In this document: in pieces, positions 1 through 31,238 of the stretch
Numbering within the stretch: position 1 is the stretch's first letter
Layout of the letters: every line of letters starts with the position of its first letter
Translations under genes and position numbers: made by a program
NCBI GenBank assembly: GCA_050311575.1
Contig: JBNOKO010000001.1
Location: forward strand, 722,239-786,238
Source: Candidatus Krakonobacterium acarorum
GTDB lineage: Bacteria; Bacteroidota; Bacteroidia; SolTP2
Direction of reading: 5' to 3'
DNA: 64,000 bases
Notes under the pieces: generated by a model
What the model was told of the DNA's origin: nothing
Databases searched by the model: none
Seen by the model: only the letters and a program-made list of their open reading frames with translations

Positions 1-485
1 GTTCAGGTTTGCTATGGACCGCTAAAGAAGGTTTGTTGCCGGAAACTTTAGCTAAAACCAATAAAAATGGTGTTCCAAAAAACATTCTTTTAATACAGGC
101 AGTTATAGTTACAATTTTATCGTCTTTATATTTTGTTATAGATAATGTTAGTGTGGCTTTCTTCTTGCTATCTGCTTTAACCATAGGCCTTTATTTGATT
201 ATGTATATGCTTATGTACCTTGCAGGTATTAAGCTAAGATATACACAGCCTGATTTACCACGTTCCTACAAAGTACCTGGAGGTAAAAAAGGCATGATAA
301 TAATTGCAGGTATTGGTCTTGTATCAGTAATATTTTCATTTATAGTTAGTTTTTTCCCTCCGTCTCAATTACCAATAGGCAGTGTTAGTTTATATGTAAC
401 ATTAGTTGCTTTAGGAAATATAATATTTGTAGCTTTACCATTTATAATTGTTAAAACTAACCAAACATCTAAAAACTCTAACTAA
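1..485 (+). CDS. APC-superfamily amino acid permease, C-terminal fragment (5' end lies outside the window)
   Basis: Reading frame is open from the window edge (first Met at 9 is internal). Hydrophobic TM segments (ILLIQAVIVTILSSLYFV; IIIAGIGLVSVIFSFIVSFF) and a short hydrophilic tail are typical of APC transporters. Stop at 483-485. Confidence 0.6.
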   Translation, partial: SGLLWTAKEGLLPETLAKTNKNGVPKNILLIQAVIVTILSSLYFVIDNVSVAFFLLSALTIGLYLIMYMLMYLAGIKLRYTQPDLPRSYKVPGGKKGMIIIAGIGLVSVIFSFIVSFFPPSQLPIGSVSLYVTLVALGNIIFVALPFIIVKTNQTSKNSN

Positions 486-496
486 ATAACAATACG

Positions 497-1813
497 ATGG
501 TAAAAAATATTTATAAAAAATTCTTTGTTGTAGTATTATTTTTACTAACTGCTTATAACAGCAATGTATATTCTCAGGATTTGGATAAAACTAATAAGGA
601 TGACCCTTTTGTCGATAGGTTCGATAAACGTTTAGATATATTACAAATAGAGGAAGATAAAAACAAAGAGGCCATTAGACATTTGCTTGAGGAGTTGCAA
701 GATCTTAATGGCCCAAATGATAATCCTAAAAAAGAAAATTATACTAATCCTATAGAATTAAACATTGCAAATACTAAACTTACTATAGGCGGTTTTGTAC
801 AGTCAGATTTTATATACGATTTTAACGTATCTAGTATGGGAGGTTCTTTTATACCTTCATCTATCCCTATTAAATCGCTCTTAGATCCTAAATTAACTTT
901 TAGTTACTTACAAAGTAGATTTACATTAACATCCCAGTCAAATACAAGTATAGGGATATTGAAAACTTTATTTGAATATGACTTATTTAGTGATGGTATG
1001 TCTCCTGGGTTCCACGTGCGTCATGCTTGGGGTGAGCTTGGTAGCTTTGGTGTAGGTCAATATTGGTCGGCATTTATGGATATAGATGTATTCCCTAATA
1101 TACTTGATTATCAGGGGCCTAATGCTATGGTATTTGTAAGACAGGTGCAATTGAGATACACCCATAAGATTGGTAAGAATTTTAAAATAGCTTTGAGTAT
1201 AGAGAAGCCATATAGCGGTGTTCAGCAAGCTGCAGAATACCAAAATAAAAGTCTTGTCCCTGATTTTGCTCTACATTTGCGTTATGCAGGTACAAGGGGA
1301 CATATGCAACTTGCCGGTATATTACACTCAGTTAGATATCAGAATAATAGCACGAAAATTAATAGTACGGGCTGGGGACTTAATTTAACAGGATTATACA
1401 ATATAGGTACTGAATTAAATGATAGTATTATGTTTCAGGCTACCTATGGTAATGGTATAGCTCGTTATTTTAATGATATATCCGGTTTAAATTATGATGG
1501 TTTTATTAATAAACCTAATGATAAGATTGAGCTTGATTTATTGCCGGTATGGTCTATCATGGCTTTTTATAATCATAGTTGGAGCTCTAAATTTAGCAGT
1601 GCTTTAGGCTGGGGTTATTTAAATTTGGAGAATAATAAACTACAAATGGATAACGCATTTAACAATAGTCATTATGGTGTAGCAAACATTATATACTATC
1701 CAATAGATCCTATAAAAGTGGGTTTAGAATACTTATATGGAATGTTAATGGATAAACATAAAGATAGCAGCACTAATAATAGATTGCAGCTGTCAATTAT
1801 GTACAAGTTTTAG
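497..1813 (+). CDS. outer-membrane beta-barrel protein, porin-like, with N-terminal coiled-coil segment
   Basis: Sec signal peptide (FFVVVLFLLTAYNSNVYSQ), a charged coiled-coil-like stretch (LEELQDLN), alternating aromatic/polar beta-strand pattern and a C-terminal Phe (..SIMYKF). Sits 11 bp downstream of the permease gene. Confidence 0.55.
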   Translation: MVKNIYKKFFVVVLFLLTAYNSNVYSQDLDKTNKDDPFVDRFDKRLDILQIEEDKNKEAIRHLLEELQDLNGPNDNPKKENYTNPIELNIANTKLTIGGFVQSDFIYDFNVSSMGGSFIPSSIPIKSLLDPKLTFSYLQSRFTLTSQSNTSIGILKTLFEYDLFSDGMSPGFHVRHAWGELGSFGVGQYWSAFMDIDVFPNILDYQGPNAMVFVRQVQLRYTHKIGKNFKIALSIEKPYSGVQQAAEYQNKSLVPDFALHLRYAGTRGHMQLAGILHSVRYQNNSTKINSTGWGLNLTGLYNIGTELNDSIMFQATYGNGIARYFNDISGLNYDGFINKPNDKIELDLLPVWSIMAFYNHSWSSKFSSALGWGYLNLENNKLQMDNAFNNSHYGVANIIYYPIDPIKVGLEYLYGMLMDKHKDSSTNNRLQLSIMYKF

Positions 1814-1867
1814 TAGTTTTATAATAGTATCACCTAAGTAATAAAAATTTAATTATAAAAAAATTAC

Positions 1868-2893
1868 ATGAAAAAAACTAATAATAGCTTAAAGTTTAAG
1901 GCCTTGGCTATAGGAATTTTATTTATATGTGTAAATGTTTCCTTAAAAGCGCAGTTTAAATATCCTAGCGAAGCAGAAATAAAACTTGCGATGCAAGAAG
2001 CTCATGGAGATTTTCAATATATTAATGAAGGTCGCAATGCCGATTATATACCTTACTTAAGTAGCGTAGATGCGAATCTATATGGTATAGCAGTGGCTAC
2101 TGTTGATGGTAAAATATACGAGATAGGGGATACTAAATATGAATTTGGCATAGAATCTATTTCTAAAGTATTTGTTTTAGCAAAAGCTTTGCAGGAAAGG
2201 GGGTCTAAGGTAATAGAAGAAAAAATTGGAGTAAATGCAACAGGATTTCCTTTTAATAGTATTTTACCTATAGAATTAGAAGGTAAAAAGGCTATTAGCC
2301 CATTAGTGAACGCTGGAGCTATGGCAACCAATAGTTTGATAAAAGGTAGTAGTAAGGAGGATCAATTTAATAAAATTAATGCTTTTATTGACCAATTAGC
2401 AGGTAGAAAAATAAGGGTTATTAATATTTTATATCAATCAGAAGCGGCTACAAACTCTCATAACAGAGCTATAGCTTGGTTGCTGTCATCTTACAACGGC
2501 CTTGAAGGGGATCCGGAACAAGCCCTTGATTCATATACAAGACAATGTTCATGGGGTGTAACTGCTACTGATTTAGCTGTTATGTCAGCTACACTTGCTA
2601 ATAAAGGGATACAACCTATAACGAAAAAACGTGTTATAGACGAGCAATATGTACCTAAAGTACTAGCTAGTATGGTAACAGAAGGTTTGTATGAAAAATC
2701 AGGAGAATGGTTGTATAATGTTGGAGTTCCTGCAAAAAGTGGAGTAGGCGGTGGCGTAATTGCAGTAATACCTGGTGTTATGGCAATTTCAGCGTTTGCA
2801 CCACCATTAGATGAAGCTGGCAATAGTGTAAAAGCTCAGAAGGCAATAGCGCATATAGTTAATAAATTAGGGTTAAATATGTTTAACAGATAA
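1868..2893 (+). CDS. glsA: glutaminase A (GlsA family) with N-terminal signal peptide
   Basis: Catalytic Ser-x-x-Lys block (ESISKVF), GVGGGV near the C-terminus and ~310 aa length match the glutaminase family. The hydrophobic N-terminus (LAIGILFICVNVSLKAQ) predicts export. Confidence 0.85.
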   Translation: MKKTNNSLKFKALAIGILFICVNVSLKAQFKYPSEAEIKLAMQEAHGDFQYINEGRNADYIPYLSSVDANLYGIAVATVDGKIYEIGDTKYEFGIESISKVFVLAKALQERGSKVIEEKIGVNATGFPFNSILPIELEGKKAISPLVNAGAMATNSLIKGSSKEDQFNKINAFIDQLAGRKIRVINILYQSEAATNSHNRAIAWLLSSYNGLEGDPEQALDSYTRQCSWGVTATDLAVMSATLANKGIQPITKKRVIDEQYVPKVLASMVTEGLYEKSGEWLYNVGVPAKSGVGGGVIAVIPGVMAISAFAPPLDEAGNSVKAQKAIAHIVNKLGLNMFNR

Positions 2894-2920
2894 AATATCA
2901 ATTATAGCAAAAAATAAAAA

Positions 2921-2966
2921 ATGGATTTTAGAATTAATTAATTCTAAAATCCATTTTTTATTTTAA
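2921..2966. terminator. perfect inverted repeat (atggattttagaatt / aattctaaaatccat) flanked by an A-run and a T-run; probable bidirectional rho-independent terminator
   Basis: 15 bp perfect stem centred on the palindromic ttaattaa, followed by ttttttatttt. Immediately downstream of the glsA stop. Confidence 0.6.
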
Positions 2967-3003
2967 TTAATAATAACTTTGGTTGATATTAATTAAAGTT
3001 ATT

Positions 3004-4134
3004 ATGGCTAGAAAAAGTAAATCTAAAAGGTTTCCTCGTAAATATTGCACTATAGATTTTTTACTATGTATAGAGTATAATTACAAAGGTCAAGGTATAG
3101 TAATATGAAACGATAAACCTTTTTATGTAAATGGCTTAATTATTGGAGAGAGTGCGCGTATAATAGTTTTTGCCGAATTCCCAGACTATGGTGAAGCTAG
3201 AGCGATAATGCTTTTAAAACCATCTGTTGATAGAAAACTGCCTTTAGACCATCCTAAGTTAGAATTAGGAGTTTATCATATAGCACATTTAACTGATCAG
3301 GCTCAGGATGCATTCAAACAAAATCGAGCTTATTCTTTGTTTGGATCCATTACTAAATCTATTATTGTTGGTGATCGTACCTACTACCGTAATAAGGTTG
3401 TATTAACTGATGGCGGATTCAAGCCACCAGGTTGGAAGCGTAAATTATCTATTATACCTACTAAAGAACAGTTTGATTTAATGGACATAGACTTTTCTAA
3501 ATACTCCGTAGAAAAAGGTGATACAATAATCAGGCGTCTAGATTATGAAATATCTGGTAAACCGGGCGAAGAAAAATATGTAACCGATACATTTTTAAAT
3601 AAAATTTATCGCGTTAATCTTAACTCGTTTTACCAAGTAAATACCAATATGGCAAAAAAGGTTTATAAAGCTATAAAAACTTTTATAACACCTAATACTA
3701 TAGTATTTGATTTATTTGCAGGAGCAGCTACCATAGGCATATTTGTATCGGATATAGTTAATAAGGTCTATTCTATAGAAATTAATACGGAATCTATTAA
3801 GGATGCTTTAGAAAACAAAAGAATCAATAAAGCTAATAATGTAGAGATTATAAAGGCCGATGCTAATTTGTGGCTTGTAGAAAATGGGGATATTTTACAA
3901 GTACATACTATAATTTTAGATCCAGCTCGCAGCGGTATATCTCCACAGTCAGCTGGTATAATAAACCTATCGCAAGCAAAAAGGATTATTTATTTATCAT
4001 GTAACATTGATACTCAAAAACGCGATATCGATTTATTAACATCTTATGAAGTTGTACACGTGCAACCATATGATTTTTTTCCGCAAACTTATCATATAGA
4101 AAACTTAGTTGTACTAGATAAAAAACCTATATAA
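3004..4134 (+). pseudogene. rlmD/rumA-like 23S rRNA (uracil-C5)-methyltransferase interrupted by one in-frame TGA at 3106-3108
   Basis: ATG at 3004 is in the same frame as the 3208 ORF. The upstream segment translates to MARKSKSKRFPRKYCTIDFLLCIEYNYKGQGIVI*NDKPFYVNGLIIGESARIIVFAEF.., which aligns to the TRAM N-terminus of E. coli RlmD (..[29 protein letters not shown]..), recalled from memory. A single stop codon separates it from the rest of the gene. Confidence 0.45.
3208..4134 (+). CDS. RNA (uracil-C5)-methyltransferase, TrmA/RlmD family (TRAM-less product if initiated at Met 3208)
   Basis: SAM motif I (DLFAGAATIG), FYQVN block, DPARSG (the DPPR-like motif) and catalytic Cys motif YLSCNxxTxxRD. 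Confidence 0.55.
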   Translation: MLLKPSVDRKLPLDHPKLELGVYHIAHLTDQAQDAFKQNRAYSLFGSITKSIIVGDRTYYRNKVVLTDGGFKPPGWKRKLSIIPTKEQFDLMDIDFSKYSVEKGDTIIRRLDYEISGKPGEEKYVTDTFLNKIYRVNLNSFYQVNTNMAKKVYKAIKTFITPNTIVFDLFAGAATIGIFVSDIVNKVYSIEINTESIKDALENKRINKANNVEIIKADANLWLVENGDILQVHTIILDPARSGISPQSAGIINLSQAKRIIYLSCNIDTQKRDIDLLTSYEVVHVQPYDFFPQTYHIENLVVLDKKPI

Positions 4135-4363
4135 TTAAGATTTTTTATCTAGTAAATGAAATTCTCTACTTTATGTGTTAATAAATGAAATATTTAACCT
4201 AAATACTGATAACAATGCTCAAGAAATCTTAACTATAAAATAGAAACACTGTTCATAATTCCAGCTTTGTTTTTATAAAAAACATTAATCGCTGTAATAC
4301 ACAGTATAATCTGTTAGCATTAATTTAAATATACAATAGTATTGATTTTTAAAAGATTATACT

Positions 4364-5656
4364 TTAAAAATGCTTTACTAAATGCCTTAATCTTTGTTTA
4401 TCGGATTCAAAAGGTAGAGATATTTCTGATATAGTTAAGGCGTTAATAGAACATTTTTTAGCTTCTTTCATAAATTTACCAGGGCTACTTTTTGCTAAAC
4501 CCATCAAAGTTTTCTGCAATATAATCTGTATCTCTATGTTTGCTGCTCCGTCTCTTGCTATAGGCGTAAATATATCATCAAAAAGATCTGACAAATATAT
4601 TGGACACGCATACAATAAAGGAAATAATACTTTATGATTGTATTGTGTAGTTTCTTTATCCCAGATAATTAATAATCTCATAGCCCTTCCAAGAACATCT
4701 ATAACAGTTCCTTTGTCGTTAGTATTAATAGCTTTAGATGCAATTTCTGTAAGTACTGCCAAACCAAATCTAGGGTCTTGATCAAAAGATCGTGTAGAGT
4801 TAATAGTTATAGCATTTAAAAGAGAGTTGATATCTATAGAGCCTGAATCTTTGCTATACTGTATTAATAATACCGGTTTACTTGGGTGTATAAAAATACC
4901 AGGAGTGCCCTTAATATAAATTTTGATCTGATTTGTATCAGCATAATCAGATATAGCTTTCATATCTATATGCGTAACATAACCAACACTTTGAGAATAT
5001 ATTGGGTAAACATCTTTTAGTCTCTGATTGGGATTATACCATGGGTTTGCTCCAAGGTAAGGATTTTTAGCACGCTCAATAAGCGCCTTGGCAGTAGTTT
5101 TTTCTATTCGAGAAGATGTTTCTGTTACTCTACCTAGTAAGGATAAATGCTGTATCCATTTTAATAAGGTGATAACGATTAAAATTACTATTACTATTGA
5201 TACAATGAATAATATAAAACGGCCTTTATGGTCGTAAATGCCGGCATTTATAGTAATTATACCTACTAAGCTAAATAAAAAAGAGCCAATAAAAGTTGCA
5301 AGTACATTTTGTGTGGTAGAATCTTCCATTAGTAATCGCGTCGCCCTGGGGGTAACATTATTTGTTGCTGAACTATATGCTGATATCATTATGTTTAAGG
5401 AAAAAGTCGTAACAGTAAGCATGCTAGAGGCAAGAATATTCAGTATTTCGTCAACAGAGTTACCACCAATATTTGTGTAGGTATTATCTGGTATAATAGG
5501 ACGCAATATCATTGAGAAGAAAGGCACTATAACAGCTAACAAAGCAAATAAAGCAACCCTGATCCATAGTTTTCGTGAAACTATACTTAATATCCACTGC
5601 CATTTAGAAGTCATTATTTTATATTGGTTAATTTTAATTGATATGTTTAAATACAA
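4364..5656 (-). CDS. integral membrane protein, probably DUF2254 family
   Basis: Four N-terminal TM helices followed by a soluble domain containing the DPRFGLAVLTEIASKA block, which resembles the DUF2254 signature. The start may be the internal Met (MTSKWQW). Confidence 0.4.
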   Translation of the reverse strand: MYLNISIKINQYKIMTSKWQWILSIVSRKLWIRVALFALLAVIVPFFSMILRPIIPDNTYTNIGGNSVDEILNILASSMLTVTTFSLNIMISAYSSATNNVTPRATRLLMEDSTTQNVLATFIGSFLFSLVGIITINAGIYDHKGRFILFIVSIVIVILIVITLLKWIQHLSLLGRVTETSSRIEKTTAKALIERAKNPYLGANPWYNPNQRLKDVYPIYSQSVGYVTHIDMKAISDYADTNQIKIYIKGTPGIFIHPSKPVLLIQYSKDSGSIDINSLLNAITINSTRSFDQDPRFGLAVLTEIASKAINTNDKGTVIDVLGRAMRLLIIWDKETTQYNHKVLFPLLYACPIYLSDLFDDIFTPIARDGAANIEIQIILQKTLMGLAKSSPGKFMKEAKKCSINALTISEISLPFESDKQRLRHLVKHF

Positions 5657-6237: not shown

Positions 6238-6993
6238 CTATATTAATATTTTATTGATCCCTAATATATATTGATTAATATAGTTTTTAATAAATTTTTC
6301 GTTAATATATTTTATGCCATTGATATTATTTTTTAATACTTCTGTCTCTAAATTATATTTTAAAAAATCGCTCAACATATTTTTAGAAAGTGGCATATAA
6401 CTAAAATGCCATGGTTCATAATTAAATCCGGTACGATTAATATCTTTAGTATAAACTTCGTAGAACCCAAATTTTGCTGAATTTTTGTTTAGCCACGATT
6501 TTAAAGGATAAAATATTCCACTTTGTGTAAAATACTTTTCTTGTAAAGGATCGTGTTTAGAAAAATATTTGTTATCTACATTACCTTGTATTATGTCTAA
6601 GTCGCTTCCCCAATGGTGTCTGGATGTTCCTGGTAAAGTAGAATATTTAATAATTTCCTTAATGGCATCTTCATGACCGTACCCCTTAGCGATATATCGA
6701 TTAAATTTGTTGTTCCATATTTTTACCTGATGGTTATAATCTCTAAATGAAGAAACTACTTTTATTAATATTCCATCTTTTTTTGCGTAATCTTGCATTT
6801 TCTCAAAAGCTCCAGCTGCATCTTTATGCAATGTATAACCATTGCCGCTGACTAAATTCTTGGGTTTAATCCCCATTAACTCATCTAAAGTGTATGTGAG
6901 TTTGAGATTAAAAGAACTATTAGTTAAAAAAGTAAAATATGCCAGACCAGAAGAGATAAATTCTCTTCTGGAGATTGTTTTGAGTTTTCGCAT
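6238..6993 (-). CDS. peptidase M15 (VanY-like D-alanyl-D-alanine carboxypeptidase) with twin-arginine signal
   Basis: Tat-like N-terminus (SRREFISSGLAYFTFL). Zinc-ligand motifs SRHHWGSDLD (S-x-H-x-x-G-x-D) and EPWHFSY match the M15 family. Confidence 0.7.
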   Translation of the reverse strand: MRKLKTISRREFISSGLAYFTFLTNSSFNLKLTYTLDELMGIKPKNLVSGNGYTLHKDAAGAFEKMQDYAKKDGILIKVVSSFRDYNHQVKIWNNKFNRYIAKGYGHEDAIKEIIKYSTLPGTSRHHWGSDLDIIQGNVDNKYFSKHDPLQEKYFTQSGIFYPLKSWLNKNSAKFGFYEVYTKDINRTGFNYEPWHFSYMPLSKNMLSDFLKYNLETEVLKNNINGIKYINEKFIKNYINQYILGINKILI

Positions 6994-7105
6994 GGTTTAA
7001 TTGTATAATTAATATATAAAAATACAATTAATTATGGCATTAATCTTGATTTGTAAATATTTACTATAAAGACATAAATTAAACAAAAAGAAATTTAATA
7101 TTCAT

Positions 7106-7921
7106 ATGTACAAGTATAATTTAAAAACAGCACTATTTGTGTTATGTTTAATATATATAATTTTTGCTTACAATATAAATGTTTATAGTTTTGGCATTGA
7201 CAATAACGACTCTGGCGTTGCTAATGTAAAGACCGTATATATTACTTCCGATGATGGCCCATGGTCTGGTACAGAAAATATTATTAAAGTTGCAACTGCA
7301 ACAAAAACGCCAATAAGTTTATTTTTTATAGGCTATAGATATTACAAGGCAAACGATAATTTAAAGCAAGTAGTTCAACAACTCAAAGATAATCCGTATA
7401 TACAGATTTGTAATCATAGTTATTCACATGCCTGGGGCAGATACGGTAAATTTTATCATACCGATAAACTTGCCTACGAAGATTTTAAAAAAAATACTCA
7501 GGAATTAGGTATCAGTAACGCTTCTCCTATTCACAGCAGATTCCCTGCACGAAATGTTTTTAGACTTCCTAATTTGAGAAAAAACGATGATTATGTAACG
7601 AAGCATTGCAAAAATCCTAAGCAAGAAGAAGCTATTTATGATGAAGTATACGATAATGGAAAATACTATGTGTATGGCTGGGATGTCTATTGGGACTTTA
7701 ATAATAAAGGAAAACCTTTACTAACGCCTAAAGAAATAGTAAGCAGAATTAATAAAAAATTTAAAGAAAACACTACTGTTATGCCGAATAAGTGTATACT
7801 AATAATGCATGATGTAATGTTTATGGATAAATTTAGCGGCAAAGAAAATTTAACTAATCTTATAGCCTTATTAAAAAAAGAAGGGTATAGGCTGGATTTT
7901 ATAAAGAATTATATAAATTAA
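7106..7921 (+). CDS. polysaccharide deacetylase (NodB / CE4 family), secreted
   Basis: Signal peptide. NodB motif 1 (TSDDGPWSG) and the His-His motif (NHSYSHAW). Confidence 0.6.
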   Translation: MYKYNLKTALFVLCLIYIIFAYNINVYSFGIDNNDSGVANVKTVYITSDDGPWSGTENIIKVATATKTPISLFFIGYRYYKANDNLKQVVQQLKDNPYIQICNHSYSHAWGRYGKFYHTDKLAYEDFKKNTQELGISNASPIHSRFPARNVFRLPNLRKNDDYVTKHCKNPKQEEAIYDEVYDNGKYYVYGWDVYWDFNNKGKPLLTPKEIVSRINKKFKENTTVMPNKCILIMHDVMFMDKFSGKENLTNLIALLKKEGYRLDFIKNYIN

Positions 7922-8102
7922 AATGATTCTATTTAAAATAATATAACTTCTGGTTTTATAATGCCTTATCTACTAGTTTATAGTTTGGCTTATGCCAAAA
8001 ACAGCTAAAGTCGCTTAAAACTATTTAATAGCAAAGATTAATAATATTTTGCATGGTTACTTATAATAAGAGCAGTTTCCTATTTTGATACAATAATATA
8101 TT

Positions 8103-8666
8103 TTAAACTCGTAGTGATGCGCGGAATCCTCTGGAGCTATAGTATGAAGATGCACCGTTATGATAAATAAATACGCTAGAATATCTATAATCGCCAAATA
8201 TGGCCCCGCCCAAGGCTCTTATTTTATCTGGAGTCATTATCCAACTGGATGTTTTGGTATCGAATTCACCTAGTGTCTGTAAATACCTATATTCTTGCTC
8301 TGTTAGAATTTCTACCCCCATAGACTTTGCCAGGTCAATAGCACTATTTTCAGGTCTATGTTCTTTTCTTGTATCTAGTGCTTTGCGATCGTAGCAAAGG
8401 CCTCTTCTACCTTTAGGGCTTTCTTTTGAACAATCATAGAATATATATTCGTCTTTATCCACGTCGTACTTAACTATATCAGGCTCGCCACCGCTTATTT
8501 CCATTTCGTTAAGCGACCGCATCTTATCGTTATTGGATTTTAATTTATTTATTATGCTGTTAAAATCCAGATCCCTATGGCGATGCATATTAGCTAAAAA
8601 TCTAGTATTTAGTTTTTGTATCAGACTCTCATAGTCATATTGACTTAATTCTTTATCAGTATTCAT
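8103..8666 (-). CDS. hypothetical protein (possibly DUF4256-like)
   Basis: 187-aa ORF. No catalytic motif recognised. Length and composition resemble a small conserved Bacteroidota protein family. Confidence 0.4.
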   Translation of the reverse strand: MNTDKELSQYDYESLIQKLNTRFLANMHRHRDLDFNSIINKLKSNNDKMRSLNEMEISGGEPDIVKYDVDKDEYIFYDCSKESPKGRRGLCYDRKALDTRKEHRPENSAIDLAKSMGVEILTEQEYRYLQTLGEFDTKTSSWIMTPDKIRALGGAIFGDYRYSSVFIYHNGASSYYSSRGFRASLRV

Positions 8667-9455
8667 GATAAAATTTTAACGGTTATTAATATACTAAGAT
8701 AGCTATTTTATATAATTCAACATTTCGGAAGTTTTTGTTTTCAAAAAAACTAATTCTTCATTTCGTTTTCAGCAGCTTTTTTAAGCTATTCAACTACTGA
8801 ATTATTTTAAGTTAATGTCCTCATTTAAAGTTCAATTCCCACACCTTTATATTTTTCTACCAAGTCACTAATTTTTTGAAAAACACTTTGTTTTTGTCAA
8901 ATATTGTGGATTTAACGGGCTAATTTTAGGCAAAATAGCATTTAAATAAAGATTGCTACTATAGGAAAAATATTTCAAAAACGTATAAGTAGTTTGAAAT
9001 CTATACAAAAAGGGGGATTGCTTGTTTGATATTATATCAATGATTCTCGGTTGGTGGAATATTTGTAGTACTGTTATAATAATTTATTTTAAACTTTATT
9101 ATTTCTAATAAACGCATAGGCTATAAAATAAGAGGGCGGGAAATTCGAATAAGTCAATTAGCAGTTAGGGGAATTTTGAACCCTTAATCACTTTTTTAAA
9201 GACCGATCGAAACGATTATTAAAAATAGTCCAAATGACAAATTAATTATAGTTCCGAAAATGTCAAGTCTCAAATGAAGGTTGCTTTTAAATATTCGCAA
9301 GGAAAAACAATTTGGTAAGATAAGCCAAATTACAAAATACTGAACCTAAATAACCCCTGGCAAACTTATATATTACTATAATTTTTCAGCTAATACTGAA
9401 AAGAAATTACAGTCTGACCATAATCTTAAAAGGTAAGTTCCCAAAGTAATTTATT

Positions 9456-9504
9456 ATCTAATCCTATAGATTTGGCGTTGGAAGGCAAATCTATAGGATT
9501 AGAT
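9456..9504. repeat. perfect 19 bp inverted repeat (atctaatcctatagatttg ... caaatctataggattagat) with an 11 nt loop
   Basis: Read directly from the sequence. Lies within a 1.24 kb ORF-free region and is not followed by a T-tract. Confidence 0.8.
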
Positions 9505-9906
9505 TTCAATATCTTTCCAAAATGATAATATTGCTTTTTACGCGTTCAACTTAGTTTTTGAATGTTATGTGAAGCTAAAAATACAGATTTTTGTATATAA
9601 GCTCAAAACAAACTGTTAGTTTAAATTCAAATTTAAGTTGATAAATGTATGTTTTGGCACATTTTTGGTCATATTTTTAATACTCAGCTAATTTGCTCTG
9701 AAAATTAATTTATTGTAGTAAAAACCCTTCCATAATGGGCATGTATTAAAAAAAGCAAAAAGGAAAATTGGTATAAATGAGGGTTTTTCAAATGCTTGTC
9801 CTTCGTCTGGAGAAGTTTATAGCGTAAAAAACTGCAAACTTTATCTTTAGAATAAACAATAAAAATAAAACTGAGAGAAATTGCAATAATTTTAATTGAT
9901 ATCTAG

Positions 9907-9978
9907 TAGCCCATAGGGGAGTCGAACCCCTCTTTCAAGAATGAAAATCTTGCGTCCTAACCGATAGACGAATGGGCC
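9907..9978 (-). tRNA. tRNA-Glu (anticodon TTC)
   Basis: Reverse complement reads GGCCCATTCGTCTATCGGTTAGGACGCAAGATTTTCATTCTTGAAAGAGGGGTTCGACTCCCCTATGGGCTA. Acceptor stem pairs; anticodon stem CAAGA/TCTTG with loop TTTTCAT gives anticodon UUC; T-loop GGTTCGACTCC. Confidence 0.9.
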
Positions 9979-9989
9979 GAAGAAATTAG

Positions 9990-10061
<72 letters not shown>

Positions 10062-10157
10062 ATATTAACAATAAAAACAAATATATTTATATTAAAAAAC
10101 ATAAGCAAGTTTTCAAAACGATAAAAACATAAGTATTACAATAAAAAAAGACTAATT

Positions 10158-11039
10158 ATGCATAAATCAGCATTTATTAATATTATAGGGCTACCTAACG
10201 TAGGAAAATCAACATTATTAAACGAAATAATTGGAGAAAAAATTTCTATTGTAACACATAAAGCTCAAACAACACGTCATAATATTTTGGGTATACTTAA
10301 TGGAGACGACTATCAACTTATATTTTGTGATACACCTGGAATCATAGATCCTAAATATGCTTTGCAGGGAGCTATGATGAAAGCTGTAAAACAATCCATG
10401 GAGGCAGCTGACATAGTTCTCGCAATAGCTTCTCTAGATCCTAAGGAGTACAAAAAAAGTACAAATTTTATTCTTGAGTACTGTAAAAATATTAGCCAAC
10501 CATTAGCTATAGTTTTTAATAAAGTAGATACATCAACGGAAGATATAGTTCAAGAGAGTACTCAGCTTATTAGCAGTAATATTAATTATCAGCGTTTATT
10601 TGTTATATCTGCTTTGCATAAATATAATATTAATTGTTTGATTGAATTTGCTTTAGAGAATAGCCCAAGCCATCCACCATACTACGAAAAAGATATGTAT
10701 ACAGATAAAGACTTACGATTTATAGCTGCAGAAAAAATTAGAGAGCAAATACTACTGCATTTTAAGCAGGAAATACCTTACTCTGTAGAAGTAATTATAG
10801 ATGAATACAAAGAGAAAGAAGATATAGACCATATATCTGCAAAAATTATAGTTGAACGAGAATCTCAAAGAGCAATTATAATAGGTAAAGGTGGTAATGT
10901 CTTAAAAAAAATAGGAACAAATGCTAGAAAAAATATACAAAACTTTAGCAAAAAGAAGGTATTTTTAGAAATATTTGTAAAAGTGATGCCTAATTGGAGA
11001 AATAATAAGAACTTTATACACTCAAGAAATTACGAATAA
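10158..11039 (+). CDS. era: GTPase Era
   Basis: G1 P-loop GLPNVGKST, DTPG, NKVD and a C-terminal KH domain (IIIGKGG). Confidence 0.9.
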   Translation: MHKSAFINIIGLPNVGKSTLLNEIIGEKISIVTHKAQTTRHNILGILNGDDYQLIFCDTPGIIDPKYALQGAMMKAVKQSMEAADIVLAIASLDPKEYKKSTNFILEYCKNISQPLAIVFNKVDTSTEDIVQESTQLISSNINYQRLFVISALHKYNINCLIEFALENSPSHPPYYEKDMYTDKDLRFIAAEKIREQILLHFKQEIPYSVEVIIDEYKEKEDIDHISAKIIVERESQRAIIIGKGGNVLKKIGTNARKNIQNFSKKKVFLEIFVKVMPNWRNNKNFIHSRNYE

Positions 11040-13409: not shown

Positions 13410-14386
13410 TTGGTTATATTAGTGTGTTGTTTGCAAAATCCTATAGGATTTGAGCTATTGTTTTTAATGTAATTATAGTGGTGTATGCTAAACTTTGCTT
13501 TCTCAGTTTTTTTAAATAGAATATTCCATGATCCATCATAAATAATTTTATTTGGCAGGTATAAATTATTTATGATAGTTGTTTCAATATTCATATTAAT
13601 GTCGAAATCAAAAAGAAAGTTTTTGTATTTTAAGTGTATGAATCTAGATAAAATTTTTGAATTTTGTTTGTCTATTATAGTATTTAATCGCTGAATAATT
13701 AAAGAATTATCTTTTGCATATTCCGGGCGTATGTAATATTCAAATTTGTAGGCTTCCTGGTTGTTGTAATAAATTTTGGTAATCTTAGATTGATATAATC
13801 GCTTTAGCTTAGGTTTAAAGATTTCTGATTTACTACTTATAAAAGGTATATCTGTTATCTGTTTGCCAGGATTAAAAATGAGAATTTTTAGCTTTGCTTT
13901 GTATAGTTCTTTATTAAAGATATTTTTTTTGTTATTTGGTATATGAGCAGTAAAGTCGGTGCTGTGAATGTTTTCAAACATATAGTTGAACATCTGTACT
14001 GTAAATAATCTATACTTACCGTTATTTTTATAGACTTTTCCACTATCTAAACTATCTAAAATTATTTGTGCGTAGTTATTATTAGAATTACAGTGAGCAA
14101 TTTTTTTATATATATGCCCTTCTATATTTTGTTTGTCAAAAGTAAATATTTCGTTCTCGGCGATAAAACTAAAAGCTTTCATATTTGTGAAGCTTTCGTA
14201 TAAAGATTTATCATTTAGTATTAAATCAATAAAAAAATTCTCGTCTATAGCTTTAGATGTTATAGTTATAGCTTCTAAATCATGATTTTTTTGTGCATCG
14301 CTGTTTAAAGGTTGAGCATAAACTGCAGATTGAATTAAATAGCATAAAATTAGAAGAGCAACTATATATTTTGTGTATAAGTACAT
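13406..14386 (-). CDS. hypothetical secreted Asn/Lys/Ile-rich protein
   Basis: Signal peptide (IVALLILCYLIQSAVYAQ). Overlaps the downstream nucleotidyltransferase gene by 4 bp (ATGA), implying co-transcription. Confidence 0.5.
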   Translation of the reverse strand: MYLYTKYIVALLILCYLIQSAVYAQPLNSDAQKNHDLEAITITSKAIDENFFIDLILNDKSLYESFTNMKAFSFIAENEIFTFDKQNIEGHIYKKIAHCNSNNNYAQIILDSLDSGKVYKNNGKYRLFTVQMFNYMFENIHSTDFTAHIPNNKKNIFNKELYKAKLKILIFNPGKQITDIPFISSKSEIFKPKLKRLYQSKITKIYYNNQEAYKFEYYIRPEYAKDNSLIIQRLNTIIDKQNSKILSRFIHLKYKNFLFDFDINMNIETTIINNLYLPNKIIYDGSWNILFKKTEKAKFSIHHYNYIKNNSSNPIGFCKQHTNITK

Positions 14387-15603: not shown

Positions 15604-16644
15604 ATGGAAAATAAGGAAGAAAAATTGAAAGTATTAGAGGCTACTTTAAGTAAGTTGGACAAATTATATGGTAAAGGAACCGTTATGAAACTAGGCGATA
15701 AAGCTGTATTAGATCAAATTGAAGTGATTTCTACAGGTTCTATAAGCCTGGACATAGCTCTTGGTGTAGGAGGGCTACCTAAAGGGAGAATAATAGAAAT
15801 ATATGGTCCGGAATCTTCGGGGAAAACAACTCTTGCTATACACGCTATTGCTGAAGCACAGAAGCTTGGAGGTTTAGCCGCTTTTATAGACGCTGAACAT
15901 GCATTTGATAAAATTTATGCTCGTAAATTGGGCGTAGATGTAGATAACTTATTAATTGCTCAGCCTGATAACGGCGAGCAGGCTTTGGAGATTGCTGATA
16001 GCTTAATAAGATCTTCAGCATTAGATATTATAGTTATAGATTCTGTTGCAGCTTTAACGCCAAAAGGTGAAATAGAAGGCGAGATGGGTGAATCTAAGAT
16101 GGGTTTGCAAGCTAGATTAATGTCACAGGCACTCCGTAAACTAACTGGTACTATAAATAAGACAGGTTGCTGTTGTATATTTATAAATCAGTTGAGAGAT
16201 AAAATAGGTGTTCTGTATGGTAATCCGGAAACTACAACCGGAGGGAATGCTTTAAAATATTATGCTTCTGTTAGACTAGATATTAGAAAGGCTGGCACTC
16301 CTATAAAAGATGGAGATACAGTTTTAGGTGTACCAACAAAGGTTAAAGTTGTAAAAAATAAAGTTGCCCCTCCATTTAGAGTTGCCCAGTTTGATATTAT
16401 TTATGGACAAGGGATTTCTAAAACTAGCGAAATTTTAGACTTGGGAGTTAACTTAGATATAGTTAAAAAATCCGGATCTTGGTTTAGTTATAACGATATA
16501 AAATTAGGTCAGGGTAAAGACGCGGTTAAAGCATTCTTGTCAGATAACATAGAGCTTCTTAATGAAATAGAAGCCCGGGTTAAACAGAATGCAACAGGCG
16601 ATATGTTAGAGCAGGTTATCTCAGATAGTTCCGATTTTTCTTAA
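15604..16644 (+). CDS. recA: recombinase RecA
   Basis: Walker [10 protein letters not shown], and the [36 protein letters not shown] block. Confidence 0.95.
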
Positions 16645-20196: not shown

Positions 20197-20231
20197 CGTC
20201 TAAAAATAATTAGAATGTCTTTCTTAATTTA

Positions 20232-20281
20232 TTAGAAATAATAGCTGATGAGGCAAAGTCCTTATCAGCTATTATTTCTAA
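20232..20281. terminator. perfect 18 bp inverted repeat (ttagaaataatagctgat / atcagctattatttctaa) with a 14 nt loop
   Basis: Lies 36 bp downstream of the permease stop. No strong T-tract, so terminator function is inferred. Confidence 0.4.
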
Positions 20282-20749
20282 TGTCTATATATACTAAAAT
20301 ATATGCATTACATCTAAAAGAGATAGACATGTTAAATTTAAGAGTTCATGGTACTATAGGTATACCTGACTAAAAGTATAGTTATAATTGTCTATCAAAA
20401 GCTAATTTTCAATACTAATGATTTATAGAGTTGTATGTGTTAGATATAATTTGATGTCATATTAAAAAAGCACTAAGTAAAGGGCTACAGTCTTCGATTA
20501 GTGGCTACAAAGTGGTAAGTTATCTGGCTATGCTAAGTACTATATTTTCAAAATTAAATTAATACATAGTTACGGTATTCTTTATATTTTAGTGTGATAT
20601 TATTCATATTGATATACGTGAATTTTAATAATTTTATATTTATAGAGACATAATATATAGATTCTGATATTAGTTATACATAATATTAGCTACCTATATT
20701 TTTTAAACAAAGCATAATTACCAATAATGCTTAAACTGAAATAATAAGT

Positions 20750-27259: not shown

Positions 27260-27286
27260 AGGCATAAAAATAACTATTCTTTATAT

Positions 27287-27334
27287 ATTTAATGCTTATA
27301 AAATGGTTAATTAATCATTTTATAAGCATTAAAT
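27287..27334. terminator. perfect 18-19 bp inverted repeat (atttaatgcttataaaatg / cattttataagcattaaat); probable bidirectional terminator between convergent uvrA and paralog A
   Basis: Read directly from the sequence. Confidence 0.5.
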
Positions 27335-27376
27335 ACCTCAATTTAGAGCTATCGCAGATGCGCTTATTAATTTTTA

Positions 27377-28399: not shown

Positions 28400-29084
28400 A
28401 AAAAAATTTATTAAGATTAATAAAACAAGCTGGTTTGTTAGCAAACCAGCATATAAGCAATAGTAATAATATAATTTTATTATTACTAATATTTAACAAA
28501 TAAAATCAAAATAGTTGTTTAAAATTAATTAAAAGTCAAAATTTACCATGAAATTGTAGTGTTTGTGTAACTATTCTTGTATTTGTTGCATGTTCAATAT
28601 CTGAAATGATATATAAATATGCATTATTTGGCTTTATGATGCGATATTGATAAATTTATGTAAAAATCCAAATAAACAGTATTGTTGGCAAAGTATATTT
28701 ATCATTTAAGTAGACTTAAATAATAAATAGTTATAATATTTAGTTAAAACAGCGAAGTCGATACAAACTAAATCAAGTAAAGATATTGTGTAAATTAATA
28801 TAAATAGTTTATAATAATTTAGGAGAGTTAATCGTAAATAGGTCTGGATTTATCGTTAAAATTAATGCGCGTATTGCTATGATAAATTAATACATATTAA
28901 TGGCAATTTTATCTTTCATCATATACGTATAGTAATTCGATTGGAATATTCGATGTTTGTGTATTATTATTTCTTTTATATAATTATACTTAAAGTAGTA
29001 ATATTGAGGTTAATTGGTACCGTAGTAATATAGACTTTCAGCTATGTTATTTATTTTAGGGATTATAGGAGCGATTCTATAAAT

Positions 29085-29126
29085 TACCGTTATATGGTTA
29101 AACTTAAGTTTAACCATATAACGGTA
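29085..29126. terminator. perfect 19 bp inverted repeat (taccgttatatggttaaac / gtttaaccatataacggta) with loop ttaa, directly downstream of the paralog B stop
   Basis: Read directly from the sequence. 32 bp beyond the stop codon of the minus-strand gene. Confidence 0.5.
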
Positions 29127-29157
29127 TAGAAATTAATATTTATAAGTTTAACAGAAC

Positions 29158-30211: not shown

Positions 30212-31207
30212 TTATTTTTTTATAGGCAATACTTTTGCGCCAAATCTTTTTATTAAAATAGGATTTTTAGGATCAGTAATGTCGTTAAGTTGTGTTTCTA
30301 AGTTTAGACCATAATCGGCGTTTATCGTAGCCTTGTTTCTATAAACAAATTGACCTTTTTTATTAGTAGTAAAATAAGGATATTCATCATAATAACCTGG
30401 TTTATATGCTTTTATACCACTCATTATCTCATGTTGATTAAAGTATACGTCTGCGTTATTATGACTCGCATTTTTTGCAAATAAAATATTTGTAAAATTA
30501 ACAGGGATTTCCAGGAAAACCTCAGCATCCATTTTTTGTCTATATAGCACAGCAGCTAGTTCGTATTTTTTATGCGCTGGAACAGATACTGACATGCTTT
30601 TCAATGTATCAGTGTCCGTTTTAGTATTCACTTTAGTGTTTGTTGAAGTAAGATTAAAAGAAAAATTTAATTCAAAATTTATCCCCTCACCTACAAATGG
30701 TATATCTACATCAGCTCCCAATTGAATTCCGATTCCAAAGCTCTTGCTAACTGTTGAAGAAGTCGTATTAGTTATTATCTCAGCATGCTCTAATGATGAA
30801 TATATTTGTGTTTGGCCAGTATTGTTTGCAAAAGTTTGTATTGTATGATACGTTGGCTTAAGATCATTTATATTTGGATGATCTATTAATGTCATAGCTA
30901 TGTGGCCCATATCGACATTGCAATATTTTCTAGAGACCAGGTATAGATTATTATCTTTAGGCTCCAGGCTATTAATATCCTTAATATATGCATTGCTGAT
31001 ATCTACTACTAAATCGTCTAAAATCTTTACGACAGATTTAGTAGCCTCGTCTTTCAATGAGTCAATTACAAGGCAATTTTCATTAGCAGATTGCTCATCC
31101 AGGCTTAAGATATCTTGTCTAGAGCATCCGTAATATAATGTTAAGAATGATATAATTAAGAGTAATGTTGTGCATAATTTAAATAGTTTAAAAGTATAAT
31201 ATTTCAT
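30212..31207 (-). CDS. paralog C of the tandem lipoprotein / putative beta-pore-forming-toxin-like family
   Basis: Signal peptide with Cys (LYYGCSRQD). Same conserved blocks as A and B (ILDDLVVDISNAYIKD; RKYC; STVSKSFGIGIQLGADVDIPFVGEGINFELNFSFNLTSTNTK; YPYFTTNKKGQFVYRNKATINADYG). Only 25 bp separate it from paralog B. Confidence 0.6.
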   Translation of the reverse strand: MKYYTFKLFKLCTTLLLIISFLTLYYGCSRQDILSLDEQSANENCLVIDSLKDEATKSVVKILDDLVVDISNAYIKDINSLEPKDNNLYLVSRKYCNVDMGHIAMTLIDHPNINDLKPTYHTIQTFANNTGQTQIYSSLEHAEIITNTTSSTVSKSFGIGIQLGADVDIPFVGEGINFELNFSFNLTSTNTKVNTKTDTDTLKSMSVSVPAHKKYELAAVLYRQKMDAEVFLEIPVNFTNILFAKNASHNNADVYFNQHEIMSGIKAYKPGYYDEYPYFTTNKKGQFVYRNKATINADYGLNLETQLNDITDPKNPILIKRFGAKVLPIKK

Positions 31208-31238
31208 GAATATATTTAGTTAGATAAATAAAATAGTT

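What the first reader, a model, noticed from the sequence alone, without database searches (positions are those of the whole stretch)
8667..9906. 1.24 kb ORF-free region beside the tRNA-Met/tRNA-Glu pair, containing a perfect 19 bp hairpin
No ORF of 60 codons or more exists on either strand between the gene ending at 8666 and the tRNAs, although the rest of the window is densely packed. The region contains a perfect 19 bp inverted repeat with an 11 nt loop (9456-9504) that has no terminator T-tract. I could not recognise tmRNA, RNase P, SRP or 6S RNA signatures by eye. It could hold an unannotated ncRNA, a decayed gene or a regulatory element tied to the tRNA operon.
Basis: seen in the sequence. 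Interest (0 to 1): 0.5.

Follow-up and report, generated by a model that had tools for sequence, protein, structure and literature searches.

The report
Restriction-gene relic in symbiont spacer
The 1.24 kb gene-free stretch is a gene-loss scar in the shrunken genome of a mite gut symbiont: it still holds the broken tail end of a restriction-enzyme gene and a leftover terminator-type hairpin, and nothing suggests a new RNA gene, so it is ordinary.

Summary
Window 8667-9905 has no ORF of 60 codons or more. It carries a perfect 19 bp hairpin with an 11 nt loop at 9456-9504 and lies just downstream of tRNA-Glu and tRNA-Met on the minus strand.

The window is 100% identical to Candidatus Krakonobacterium acarorum JBNOKP010000002.1, a 1.3-1.6 Mb reduced-genome gut symbiont of stored-product mites.

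Positions 8825-8975 on the minus strand are the last ~50 codons of an EcoR124-family (type IC) restriction subunit gene, hsdR. The original stop codon survives and there is one frameshift. The relic is 71-79% identical in DNA to the 3' ends of plasmid hsdR genes. The repaired peptide matches PF12008 proteins at E=4e-13. No other hsdR, hsdM or hsdS sequence exists in the 64 kb.

The remaining ~930 nt match nothing in Rfam, Pfam, a 5.8-billion-protein set, phages or plasmids. They have random stop density, no DnaA boxes and no unusual folding apart from the hairpin.

The hairpin is one of nine long perfect hairpins in the window (none in shuffles). Six of the others sit 0-35 nt after a stop codon, also without T-tracts, so this one looks like an orphaned gene-end terminator.

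Verdict: a deletion and decay scar. Interest is low.

The parts
8667..8824 (-). Upstream region of the DUF4256 gene (ATG at 8666), lying between that gene and the stop codon of the hsdR relic. It presumably holds the DUF4256 promoter, but no canonical Bacteroidota -7 motif was found here.
   Evidence: The strain from Acarus siro (L006) shows a run of X->T differences at 8668-8728, which looks like an assembly artefact.
8825..8975 (-). Relic of the 3' end of an EcoR124-family (type IC) type I restriction endonuclease R subunit gene (hsdR). The stop codon TAA is at 8825-8827. Frame B (8828-8896) reads QKQSVFQKISDLVEKYKGVGIEL*. Frame A (8892-8975) reads [26 protein letters not shown]. A 2-nt deletion near 8893-8896 shifts the frame.
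   Evidence: blastn gives 71-79% identity to the 3' ends of annotated hsdR genes on 23 plasmids. The Flavobacterium HsdR C-terminus reads ...[48 protein letters not shown]. tblastn gives E=7e-11. The repaired peptide scores E=4e-13 against PF12008 proteins. A custom HsdR HMM matches at positions 989-1032 of 1033.
8976..9455 (.). Unassigned spacer DNA with no detectable homology, coding signal or structure. All substitutions that distinguish two other strains fall within 9120-9502.
9456..9504 (.). Perfect 19-bp inverted repeat with an 11-nt loop. It has the same architecture as the hairpins found after stop codons elsewhere in the window, but no gene end lies next to it. It is read here as an orphaned, possibly still active, terminator-type hairpin.
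   Evidence: It is unique in the window. Viral and metagenome collections give only single-arm chance matches. Two strains carry 9502 G>A, which gives G-U in a minus-strand RNA and C-A in a plus-strand RNA.
9505..9905 (-). Unassigned 401 nt between the 3' end of tRNA-Glu and the hairpin. It could be a trailer of the tRNA operon or further decayed DNA.
   Evidence: A 19/23 similarity of 9512-9534 to the tRNA-Glu anticodon arm is not significant (E=0.16 in the window).
9906..9978 (-). tRNA-Glu (UUC)
   Evidence: ARAGORN; Rfam RF00005 at 57.5 bits.
9989..10061 (-). tRNA-Met (CAU). It has a mismatched first acceptor pair and GGG/CCC in the anticodon stem, which are initiator tRNA features. A Bacteroidota-type -7 box, TATATTTG, lies at 10078-10085 (-), 16 nt upstream.
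   Evidence: (alignment).

Best explanation
The spacer is a deletion and decay scar in a genome that is shrinking. An EcoR124-type (type IC) restriction-modification locus, transcribed in the same direction as the tRNAs and the DUF4256 gene, once lay between tRNA-Glu and DUF4256. Deletion removed hsdM, hsdS and about 95% of hsdR. The last ~50 codons of hsdR remain, now frameshifted, and end 158 nt upstream of the DUF4256 start codon.

The other ~930 nt are most likely further eroded, non-functional DNA. The 19-bp hairpin belongs to this genome's class of gene-end, terminator-type hairpins. It has lost its gene, or it now stops read-through from the tRNA-Met/tRNA-Glu operon before it reaches DUF4256.

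**Shown:** the hsdR relic; the absence of the rest of the system from the window; the absence of any known RNA family, coding signal or extended structure; and the existence of a hairpin class at gene ends.

**Inferred:** that deletion rather than point-mutation decay removed the rest; that the unassigned DNA is former coding or mobile DNA; and that the hairpin terminates transcription.
For: **1. Organism.** The window is 100% identical to JBNOKP010000002.1. That record is Candidatus Krakonobacterium acarorum, a 1.3-1.6 Mb, ~32% GC symbiont whose free-living relatives have 4.5-5.2 Mb genomes (PMC12323627). Heavy gene loss is therefore expected.

**2. The hsdR relic.**
- blastn gives 71-79% identity over ~75-110 nt to 23 plasmids, always at the 3' end of hsdR wherever a gene is annotated under the match.
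- The two reading frames together reproduce the HsdR C-terminus down to the same stop codon.
- The repaired 59-aa peptide hits 143 proteins, the best at E=4e-13 in a 5.8-billion-sequence database. Nearly all of those listed carry PF12008.
- Pfam places the peptide at positions 212-260 of the 260-position EcoR124_C profile.

**3. Only the tail survives.** HMMs built from four HsdR, four HsdS and three HsdM proteins find only HsdR positions 989-1032, both in the spacer and in the whole 64 kb.

**4. Relatives have a short spacer.** In the nearest relative that keeps the tRNA-Met, tRNA-Glu / era-der arrangement (L010), the spacer downstream of the tRNAs is 242 nt. In Solitalea canadensis (L008), which has two tRNA-Met genes there, it is 166 nt. 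Here it is 1,239 nt.

**5. Base composition.** The spacer is 26.9% GC. The other intergenic DNA is 21.6% and coding DNA is 32.5%. The difference from other intergenic DNA is about 4.5 binomial SD (my own calculation from the figures), as expected for former coding DNA that has not yet reached AT equilibrium.

**6. Hairpin class.** The window has 9 long perfect hairpins against 0 in shuffles. Eight are intergenic, and six of those lie 0-35 nt after a stop codon. None has a T-tract.
Against: - About 75% of the spacer (8976-9905) has no identified origin, so calling it 'decayed DNA' rests on negative results.
- Two of those negative searches demonstrably missed the hsdR relic: the six-frame Pfam scan and the six-frame search of 5.8 billion proteins. 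Other relics, or a small gene, could therefore be hidden.
- The stop-codon density is fully random. Any other former genes are either much older than the well-preserved hsdR tail or were never there.
- No transcription data could be examined.
- The available strains are 99% or more identical and their differences are patchy. Selective constraint on the spacer or on the hairpin can therefore be neither shown nor excluded.
- No relatives between 52% and 100% Era protein identity exist in the databases searched.
Confidence: 0.7

Rival explanations
1. Part of the unassigned DNA encodes a lineage-specific small RNA whose 3' end is the hairpin. One candidate is a ~170-nt minus-strand transcript starting after the TAAATTTG box at 9628-9635. 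Another is a trailer-derived RNA processed from the tRNA-Met/tRNA-Glu primary transcript.
For: The layout of a promoter-like -7 box, ~120 nt, then a strong hairpin is the classical sRNA signature. Bacteroidota -7 motifs (TAnnTTTG) on the minus strand lie at 9628-9635, 9486-9493 and 9361-9368. The single hairpin polymorphism, 9502 G>A, keeps pairing (G-U) only in a minus-strand RNA. The stretch 9445-9622 (-) folds with z=-4.8.
Against: - Four TAnnTTTG motifs in the spacer is not an excess: about 2 are expected by chance from base composition (my own estimate), and the motif is not enriched window-wide.
- The 9628-9635 box has no -33 TTTG upstream.
- The folding z-score comes almost entirely from the hairpin. 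Neighbouring 120-nt windows score no better than -2.25.
- Rfam finds nothing at E<=10.
- No homologous sequence exists elsewhere, so covariation cannot be tested.
Confidence: 0.1
2. The spacer is the remnant of an integrative element (genomic island) that inserted at the 3' end of tRNA-Glu and brought the type I R-M system in. This is a more specific version of the best explanation, not an alternative to it.
For: The scar lies directly downstream of the 3' end of a tRNA gene, which is the usual target of integrative islands (established knowledge). The best DNA matches of the relic are on plasmids, some next to relaxase or conjugation genes. In Solitalea canadensis the equivalent position next to the tRNA-Met genes holds ISL3 transposases, so the site accepts mobile DNA.
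Against: - No integrase remnant was found.
- No significant direct repeat of the tRNA-Glu 3' end was found. The best tRNA-like matches are 9512-9534 to the anticodon arm (19/23, E=0.16) and a 14/19 match at 9154-9172, both within chance.
- The spacer has no matches to phages.
Confidence: 0.3
3. The region is functional regulatory DNA. In this reading a long tRNA-operon trailer ends at a working terminator hairpin, and a long promoter or 5' leader region for the DUF4256 gene follows. The length is kept because it separates the two transcription units.
For: Both flanking units are transcribed leftward, so read-through from a strong tRNA promoter (-7 box at 10078-10085) would enter DUF4256 unless stopped. 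The hairpin matches the architecture of gene-end hairpins. The spacer length is the same in three of the four other copies held and 8 nt longer in the Acarus siro strain.
Against: - A terminator needs about 50 nt, not 1,239.
- Relatives manage with 166-242 nt at this position.
- Part of the DNA is demonstrably a dead gene fragment.
- The strains are too similar for a shared length to indicate selection.
Confidence: 0.2
4. The large AT-rich gene-free region is the chromosomal replication origin.
For: It is the largest non-coding stretch in the window and is AT-rich.
Against: No DnaA box (TTATCCACA with one mismatch or fewer) occurs anywhere in 8667-9905, although 28 occur elsewhere in the window. 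Cumulative GC skew rises through the whole window with no turning point here. The spacer is in fact less AT-rich than the other spacers.
Confidence: 0.01

Closest known systems
EcoR124I-type (type IC) restriction endonuclease subunit HsdR, C-terminal domain (Pfam PF12008, EcoR124_C)
   Same: The last ~50 codons are colinear with the family's C-terminus down to the shared stop codon. They are 65-69% identical in protein and 79% in DNA to the 1,033-aa HsdR of the Flavobacterium sp. N2155 plasmid.
   Different: Only about 5% of the gene is present. It is frameshifted and has no start codon. The nuclease (HSDR_N), motor (SWI2/SNF2, ResIII) and T1R_D3 domains are absent, and no hsdM or hsdS lies in the 64 kb. 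It is a relic, not a working member.
Pseudogene relics and enlarged spacers in reductive symbiont or pathogen genomes (for example Rickettsia prowazekii, Mycobacterium leprae, Sodalis; from general knowledge)
   Same: The setting is a host-associated genome reduced from about 5 Mb to 1.3 Mb (PMC12323627). The spacer is oversized, its GC content lies between coding and intergenic DNA, and it carries a recognisable fragment of a dispensable defence gene.
   Different: Only one fragment is recognisable. In this window the other large spacers gave no detectable relics in the plasmid search.
Intrinsic (Rho-independent) terminators
   Same: The hairpin is strong and perfect, with the same size and loop range as the hairpins found 0-35 nt after stop codons of six genes in the window.
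   Different: It has no U-tract, though the other gene-end hairpins here lack one too. It is AT-rich rather than GC-rich. It lies 401 nt from the nearest upstream gene end (tRNA-Glu) instead of 35 nt or less. Termination activity was not tested.

Membership tests
EcoR124-family HsdR (type I restriction endonuclease R subunit) | C-terminal domain PF12008 (EcoR124_C) | tested here: met
   Met for the last ~50 residues only. The repaired 59-aa peptide matches PF12008-bearing proteins at E=4e-13. It aligns to profile positions 212-260 of 260, but at 15.3 bits, below Pfam's 23.1-bit cut-off because the fragment is so short.
EcoR124-family HsdR (type I restriction endonuclease R subunit) | N-terminal nuclease domain (HSDR_N) and SWI2/SNF2-ResIII motor domains in one intact ORF of about 1,000 aa | tested here: not met
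   The custom HsdR HMM matches only positions 989-1032 of 1033, in the spacer and in the whole window. The relic is frameshifted and has no ORF. It is therefore a relic, not a functional member.
Type I restriction-modification system | Companion hsdM and hsdS genes nearby | tested here: not met
   HsdM and HsdS HMMs give no hit in the six-frame translation of the 64-kb window. The rest of the genome could not be searched.
Any Rfam RNA family (tmRNA, RNase P, SRP, 6S, riboswitches, sRNAs) | Covariance-model match | tested here: not met
   cmscan of 8000-10600 on both strands at E<=10 finds no match inside 8667-9783; the only match inside the spacer is a chance-level snoRNA hit at 9784-9878 (17.5 bits against a cut-off of 101). 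The whole window at gathering scores gives only the two tRNAs. ARAGORN finds no tmRNA.
Intrinsic terminator | Stable hairpin followed by a U-tract, placed just after a gene end | tested here: inconclusive
   The hairpin criterion is met. The U-tract is absent. The position is 401 nt after tRNA-Glu rather than 35 nt or less. The genome's own gene-end hairpins also lack U-tracts, so the canonical definition may not apply here.
Bacterial oriC | Cluster of DnaA boxes and a GC-skew switch | tested here: not met
   There are no DnaA boxes with one mismatch or fewer in the spacer and no skew inflection.
tRNA-targeting integrative element | Integrase gene and a direct repeat of the tRNA 3' end | tested here: not met
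   No integrase signal was found. No significant repeat of the tRNA-Glu 3' end was found. Decay could have erased both.

The most novel reading that the evidence does not exclude
The ~930 nt with no recognisable origin, or the ~170 nt upstream of the hairpin on the minus strand, encode a Krakonobacterium-specific non-coding RNA. It could be an sRNA or a tRNA-operon trailer RNA, would be terminated by the 19-bp hairpin, and would be invisible to Rfam because the lineage has no sequenced relatives.
Probability: 0.08. Interest if true: 0.3.

Novelty: new member of a known kind. Interest (0 to 1): 0.12.

Why it matters
It matters little beyond annotation.

- It documents that this recently described mite symbiont once carried a type IC restriction-modification system and lost it. 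That fits defence-gene loss during genome reduction.
- It flags an unannotated pseudogene fragment in JBNOKP010000002.1, at about 273,576-273,726.
- It shows that long AT-rich perfect hairpins without T-tracts mark gene ends in this genome. That would help anyone mapping its transcription units.
- As a method note, six-frame protein searches missed the relic, and only a low-stringency DNA comparison with plasmids found it.

Tried and rejected
**Searches that found nothing**
- Rfam at E<=10 on both strands gave only the two tRNAs and chance-level hits.
- A six-frame translation with stops written as X gave nothing credible against Pfam at E<=10.
- The same six frames, concatenated, gave 2,626 word-sharing candidates against 5.8 billion proteins, none at E<=10.
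- Both six-frame searches were false negatives for the hsdR relic, which is split by the frameshift into pieces of 26 and 20 aa. Their silence on the rest of the spacer is therefore weak evidence.
- blastn against phages gave no match.

**Related genomes**
- tblastn of all ORFs from the era-der neighbourhoods of four distant relatives against the spacer gave nothing above noise.
- No relatives at useful distance exist. The nearest Era protein outside the species is 52% identical, so covariation and conservation tests were impossible.
- Strain comparison (99% identity or more) is uninformative about constraint. Substitutions are patchy: 7 in 6781-7510, 10 in 9120-9502, none between.

**Ideas tested and dropped**
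- oriC: there are no DnaA boxes and no skew switch.
- Structured RNA: sliding 120-nt folding z-scores on both strands are unremarkable except at the hairpin.
- A second, inverted copy of the hsdR tail at 9248-9331 (+), reading 'IVPKMSSLK*RLLLNIRKEKQFGKIS': the HMM score is negative and there is no DNA similarity to the real relic, so it is chance.
- tRNA-derived fragments or att repeats at 9134-9186 and 9512-9534: not significant.
- The hairpin as a repeated or mobile element: it is unique in the window. Only single-arm 19-mer matches, at the number I estimate from collection size to be chance, were found in viral and metagenome collections.
- Small ORFs: none of 20 aa or more ends next to the hairpin, and only one of the twelve has an ATG start.
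- Relics in the other large spacers: a plasmid blastn of eleven concatenated spacers gave only low-complexity hits.

**Could not be done**
- I tried to learn whether Logan contigs L004 and L005 (SRR25400109, SRR25399841) come from RNA-seq. The accessions are not in the papers or supplements held. The contig ends fall at a palindrome and inside tRNAs, which is explained by how assemblers behave.

Full report
**Observation**

- A DUF4256 gene ends its reading frame (start codon) at 8666 on the minus strand.
- tRNA-Glu(UUC) lies at 9906-9978 and tRNA-Met(CAU) at 9989-10061, both on the minus strand.
- Between them are 1,239 nt with no ORF of 60 codons or more. The longest ORFs are 46, 34 and 32 aa, all starting with TTG.
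- Every reading frame has 30-34 stops in ~413 codons, which is what 27% GC DNA gives by chance.
- The inverted repeat 9456-9474 / 9486-9504 is perfect, with 19-nt arms and an 11-nt loop. An 81-nt stretch around it folds far better than shuffles (z = -7.4 and -6.0). It has no T-tract on either side.
- 'Densely packed' is only approximately true. About 87% of the window is genic, and five other spacers measure 423-713 nt.

**Source organism**

The window is 100% identical to GCA_050311595.1, contig JBNOKP010000002.1. One paper cites this accession. It describes Candidatus Krakonobacterium acarorum, formerly the 'Solitalea-like symbiont'.
- Its genome is 1.3-1.6 Mb and ~32% GC. Free-living Solitalea have 4.5-5.2 Mb (PMC12323627).
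- The closest Era GTPase outside the species is only 52% identical among 5.8 billion proteins. No relatives exist at a distance useful for conservation or covariation analysis.
- Four other copies of the locus are available. Three come from other strains, L004, L005 and L006, and are 98.8-99.4% identical.

**What the region does not contain**

- Rfam at E<=10 on both strands returns only the two tRNAs and chance-level matches. The whole window at gathering thresholds gives the same two tRNAs. ARAGORN finds no tmRNA.
- Sliding 120-nt folding z-scores on both strands are unremarkable everywhere except over the hairpin. Longer candidate transcripts owe their z-scores to the hairpin.
- No DnaA box occurs in the spacer and GC skew does not switch, so it is not oriC.
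- No repeat family is present, and the hairpin arm is unique in the window.

**What it does contain**

A low-stringency blastn of the spacer against plasmids hit window 8837-8945 at 71-79% identity on 23 plasmids. The hosts include Flavobacterium, Moraxella, Psychrobacter, Shewanella, Vibrio, Salinivibrio, Zymomonas, Moellerella and Escherichia. Wherever a gene is annotated under the match, the match lies at the 3' end of 'type I restriction endonuclease subunit R'.

The Flavobacterium sp. N2155 protein (1,033 aa) has the domains HSDR_N, SWI2/SNF2-ResIII, T1R_D3 and EcoR124_C. It ends ...[48 protein letters not shown].

On the window's minus strand:
- One frame reads [26 protein letters not shown] (8975-8892).
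- After a 2-nt deletion that is visible in the DNA alignment, the next frame reads QKQSVFQKISDLVEKYKGVGIEL* (8896-8828).
- The stop codon is at 8825-8827.

With the frameshift repaired, the 59-aa peptide matches 143 proteins, the best at E=4e-13. Nearly all of those listed carry PF12008.

HMMs built from four HsdR, four HsdS and three HsdM proteins match only HsdR positions 989-1032. That holds for the spacer and for the whole 64-kb window. The spacer therefore holds the orphaned, frameshifted tail of an EcoR124-family hsdR gene. It points the same way as the flanking genes and ends 158 nt upstream of the DUF4256 start.

Note that the six-frame Pfam scan and the six-frame search of 5.8 billion proteins both missed this relic.

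**The remainder of the spacer**

Positions 8976-9905 match nothing. Indirect evidence suggests that this too is former gene or mobile DNA rather than an ancestral spacer.
- The equivalent spacer downstream of the tRNAs is 242 nt in the closest relative that keeps the tRNA-Met, tRNA-Glu / era-der arrangement. It is 166 nt in Solitalea canadensis, where ISL3 transposases sit next to it.
- The spacer is 26.9% GC. That is significantly above the 21.6% of the other intergenic DNA and below the 32.5% of coding DNA.

**The hairpin in context**

The window has nine perfect hairpins with stems of 14 bp or more and loops of 17 nt or less. Twenty composition-preserving shuffles gave none.
- Eight are intergenic, although intergenic DNA is only 13% of the window.
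- Six of those lie 0-35 nt downstream of a stop codon: 2911, 4112, 20231, 27286, 29085 and 38239.
- They are AT-rich, have unrelated sequences and lack T-tracts.

The hairpin at 9456-9504 has the same architecture, but it lies 401 nt from the nearest upstream gene end (tRNA-Glu). I read it as an orphaned gene-end hairpin. It is either a leftover from a lost gene or a still-active stop for read-through from the tRNA operon. That operon has a Bacteroidota-type -7 box, TATATTTG, 16 nt upstream of tRNA-Met.

The one polymorphism in the hairpin is 9502 G>A in two strains. It would keep a G-U pair in a minus-strand RNA and break the pair in a plus-strand RNA. That is a single observation and no more.

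**Rivals**

- *A lineage-specific sRNA ending at the hairpin.* It cannot be excluded without transcript data. The promoter-like motifs are at chance frequency and nothing beyond the hairpin is structured.
- *A tRNA-targeting island as the vehicle for the R-M system.* This is plausible but unsupported. There is no integrase trace and no significant tRNA 3'-end repeat.
- *oriC.* Refuted.

**Verdict**

The region is a gene-loss scar of a familiar kind in a reductive symbiont genome. It is worth a pseudogene annotation but is not a discovery. I put about 0.7 confidence on the main explanation and rate interest as low.

Noticed in passing
window 2911-2964, 4112-4154, 20231-20282, 27286-27335, 29085-29126, 38239-38283: Long perfect AT-rich hairpins (14-27 bp stems) lie 0-35 nt after stop codons, none with a T-tract. 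They appear to be this genome's usual gene-end signal, possibly U-tract-independent or bidirectional terminators.
   Followed up: partly
window 31239-31269: A perfect 15-bp palindrome with a 1-nt loop lies 31 nt upstream of the start of the minus-strand gene 30212-31207, between divergent genes. This is an operator-like position rather than a gene end.
   Followed up: no
L006 (Acarus siro strain, GCA_050311615.1) against window 8668-8728, 13800-13931 and 16411-16567: There are clusters in which A, C and G are all replaced by T. They break a 326-aa gene into two pieces, and recA is not called. The assembly has only 9x coverage, so these look like assembly or read artefacts rather than real pseudogenisation.
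   Followed up: partly
window 6781-7510 and 9120-9502, against L004/L005: Differences between strains are strongly patchy: 7 and 10 substitutions in two short tracts and none in the ~1.6 kb between them apart from two indels. This suggests recombination imports between otherwise near-identical lineages.
   Followed up: no
window ~7911 (3' end of the polysaccharide deacetylase gene 7106-7921): Logan contigs L004 and L005 carry a 22-bp insertion here relative to the window. It would alter the C-terminus of the protein.
   Followed up: no
window 9989-10061 (-): The 'tRNA-Met' has a mismatched first acceptor pair (C1/A72) and three G-C pairs in the anticodon stem. These are the hallmarks of the bacterial initiator tRNA-fMet (alignment). 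The layout of tRNA-Met and tRNA-Glu divergent from era-der is shared with a distant relative, L010.
   Followed up: partly
window 1-5656 and L003/L006/L007: Several acid-resistance-type genes lie close together: glutamate decarboxylase-like (pyridoxal_deC), amino-acid permease, a DcaP/porin, and glutaminase. This fits life in the mite gut.
   Followed up: no
window 20197-20749, 28445-29157, 31208-31846, 33539-33961, 35405-35921: Five further spacers measure 423-713 nt, which is unusually large for a bacterium. They may also be gene-loss scars, but a plasmid blastn found no relic in them.
   Followed up: partly
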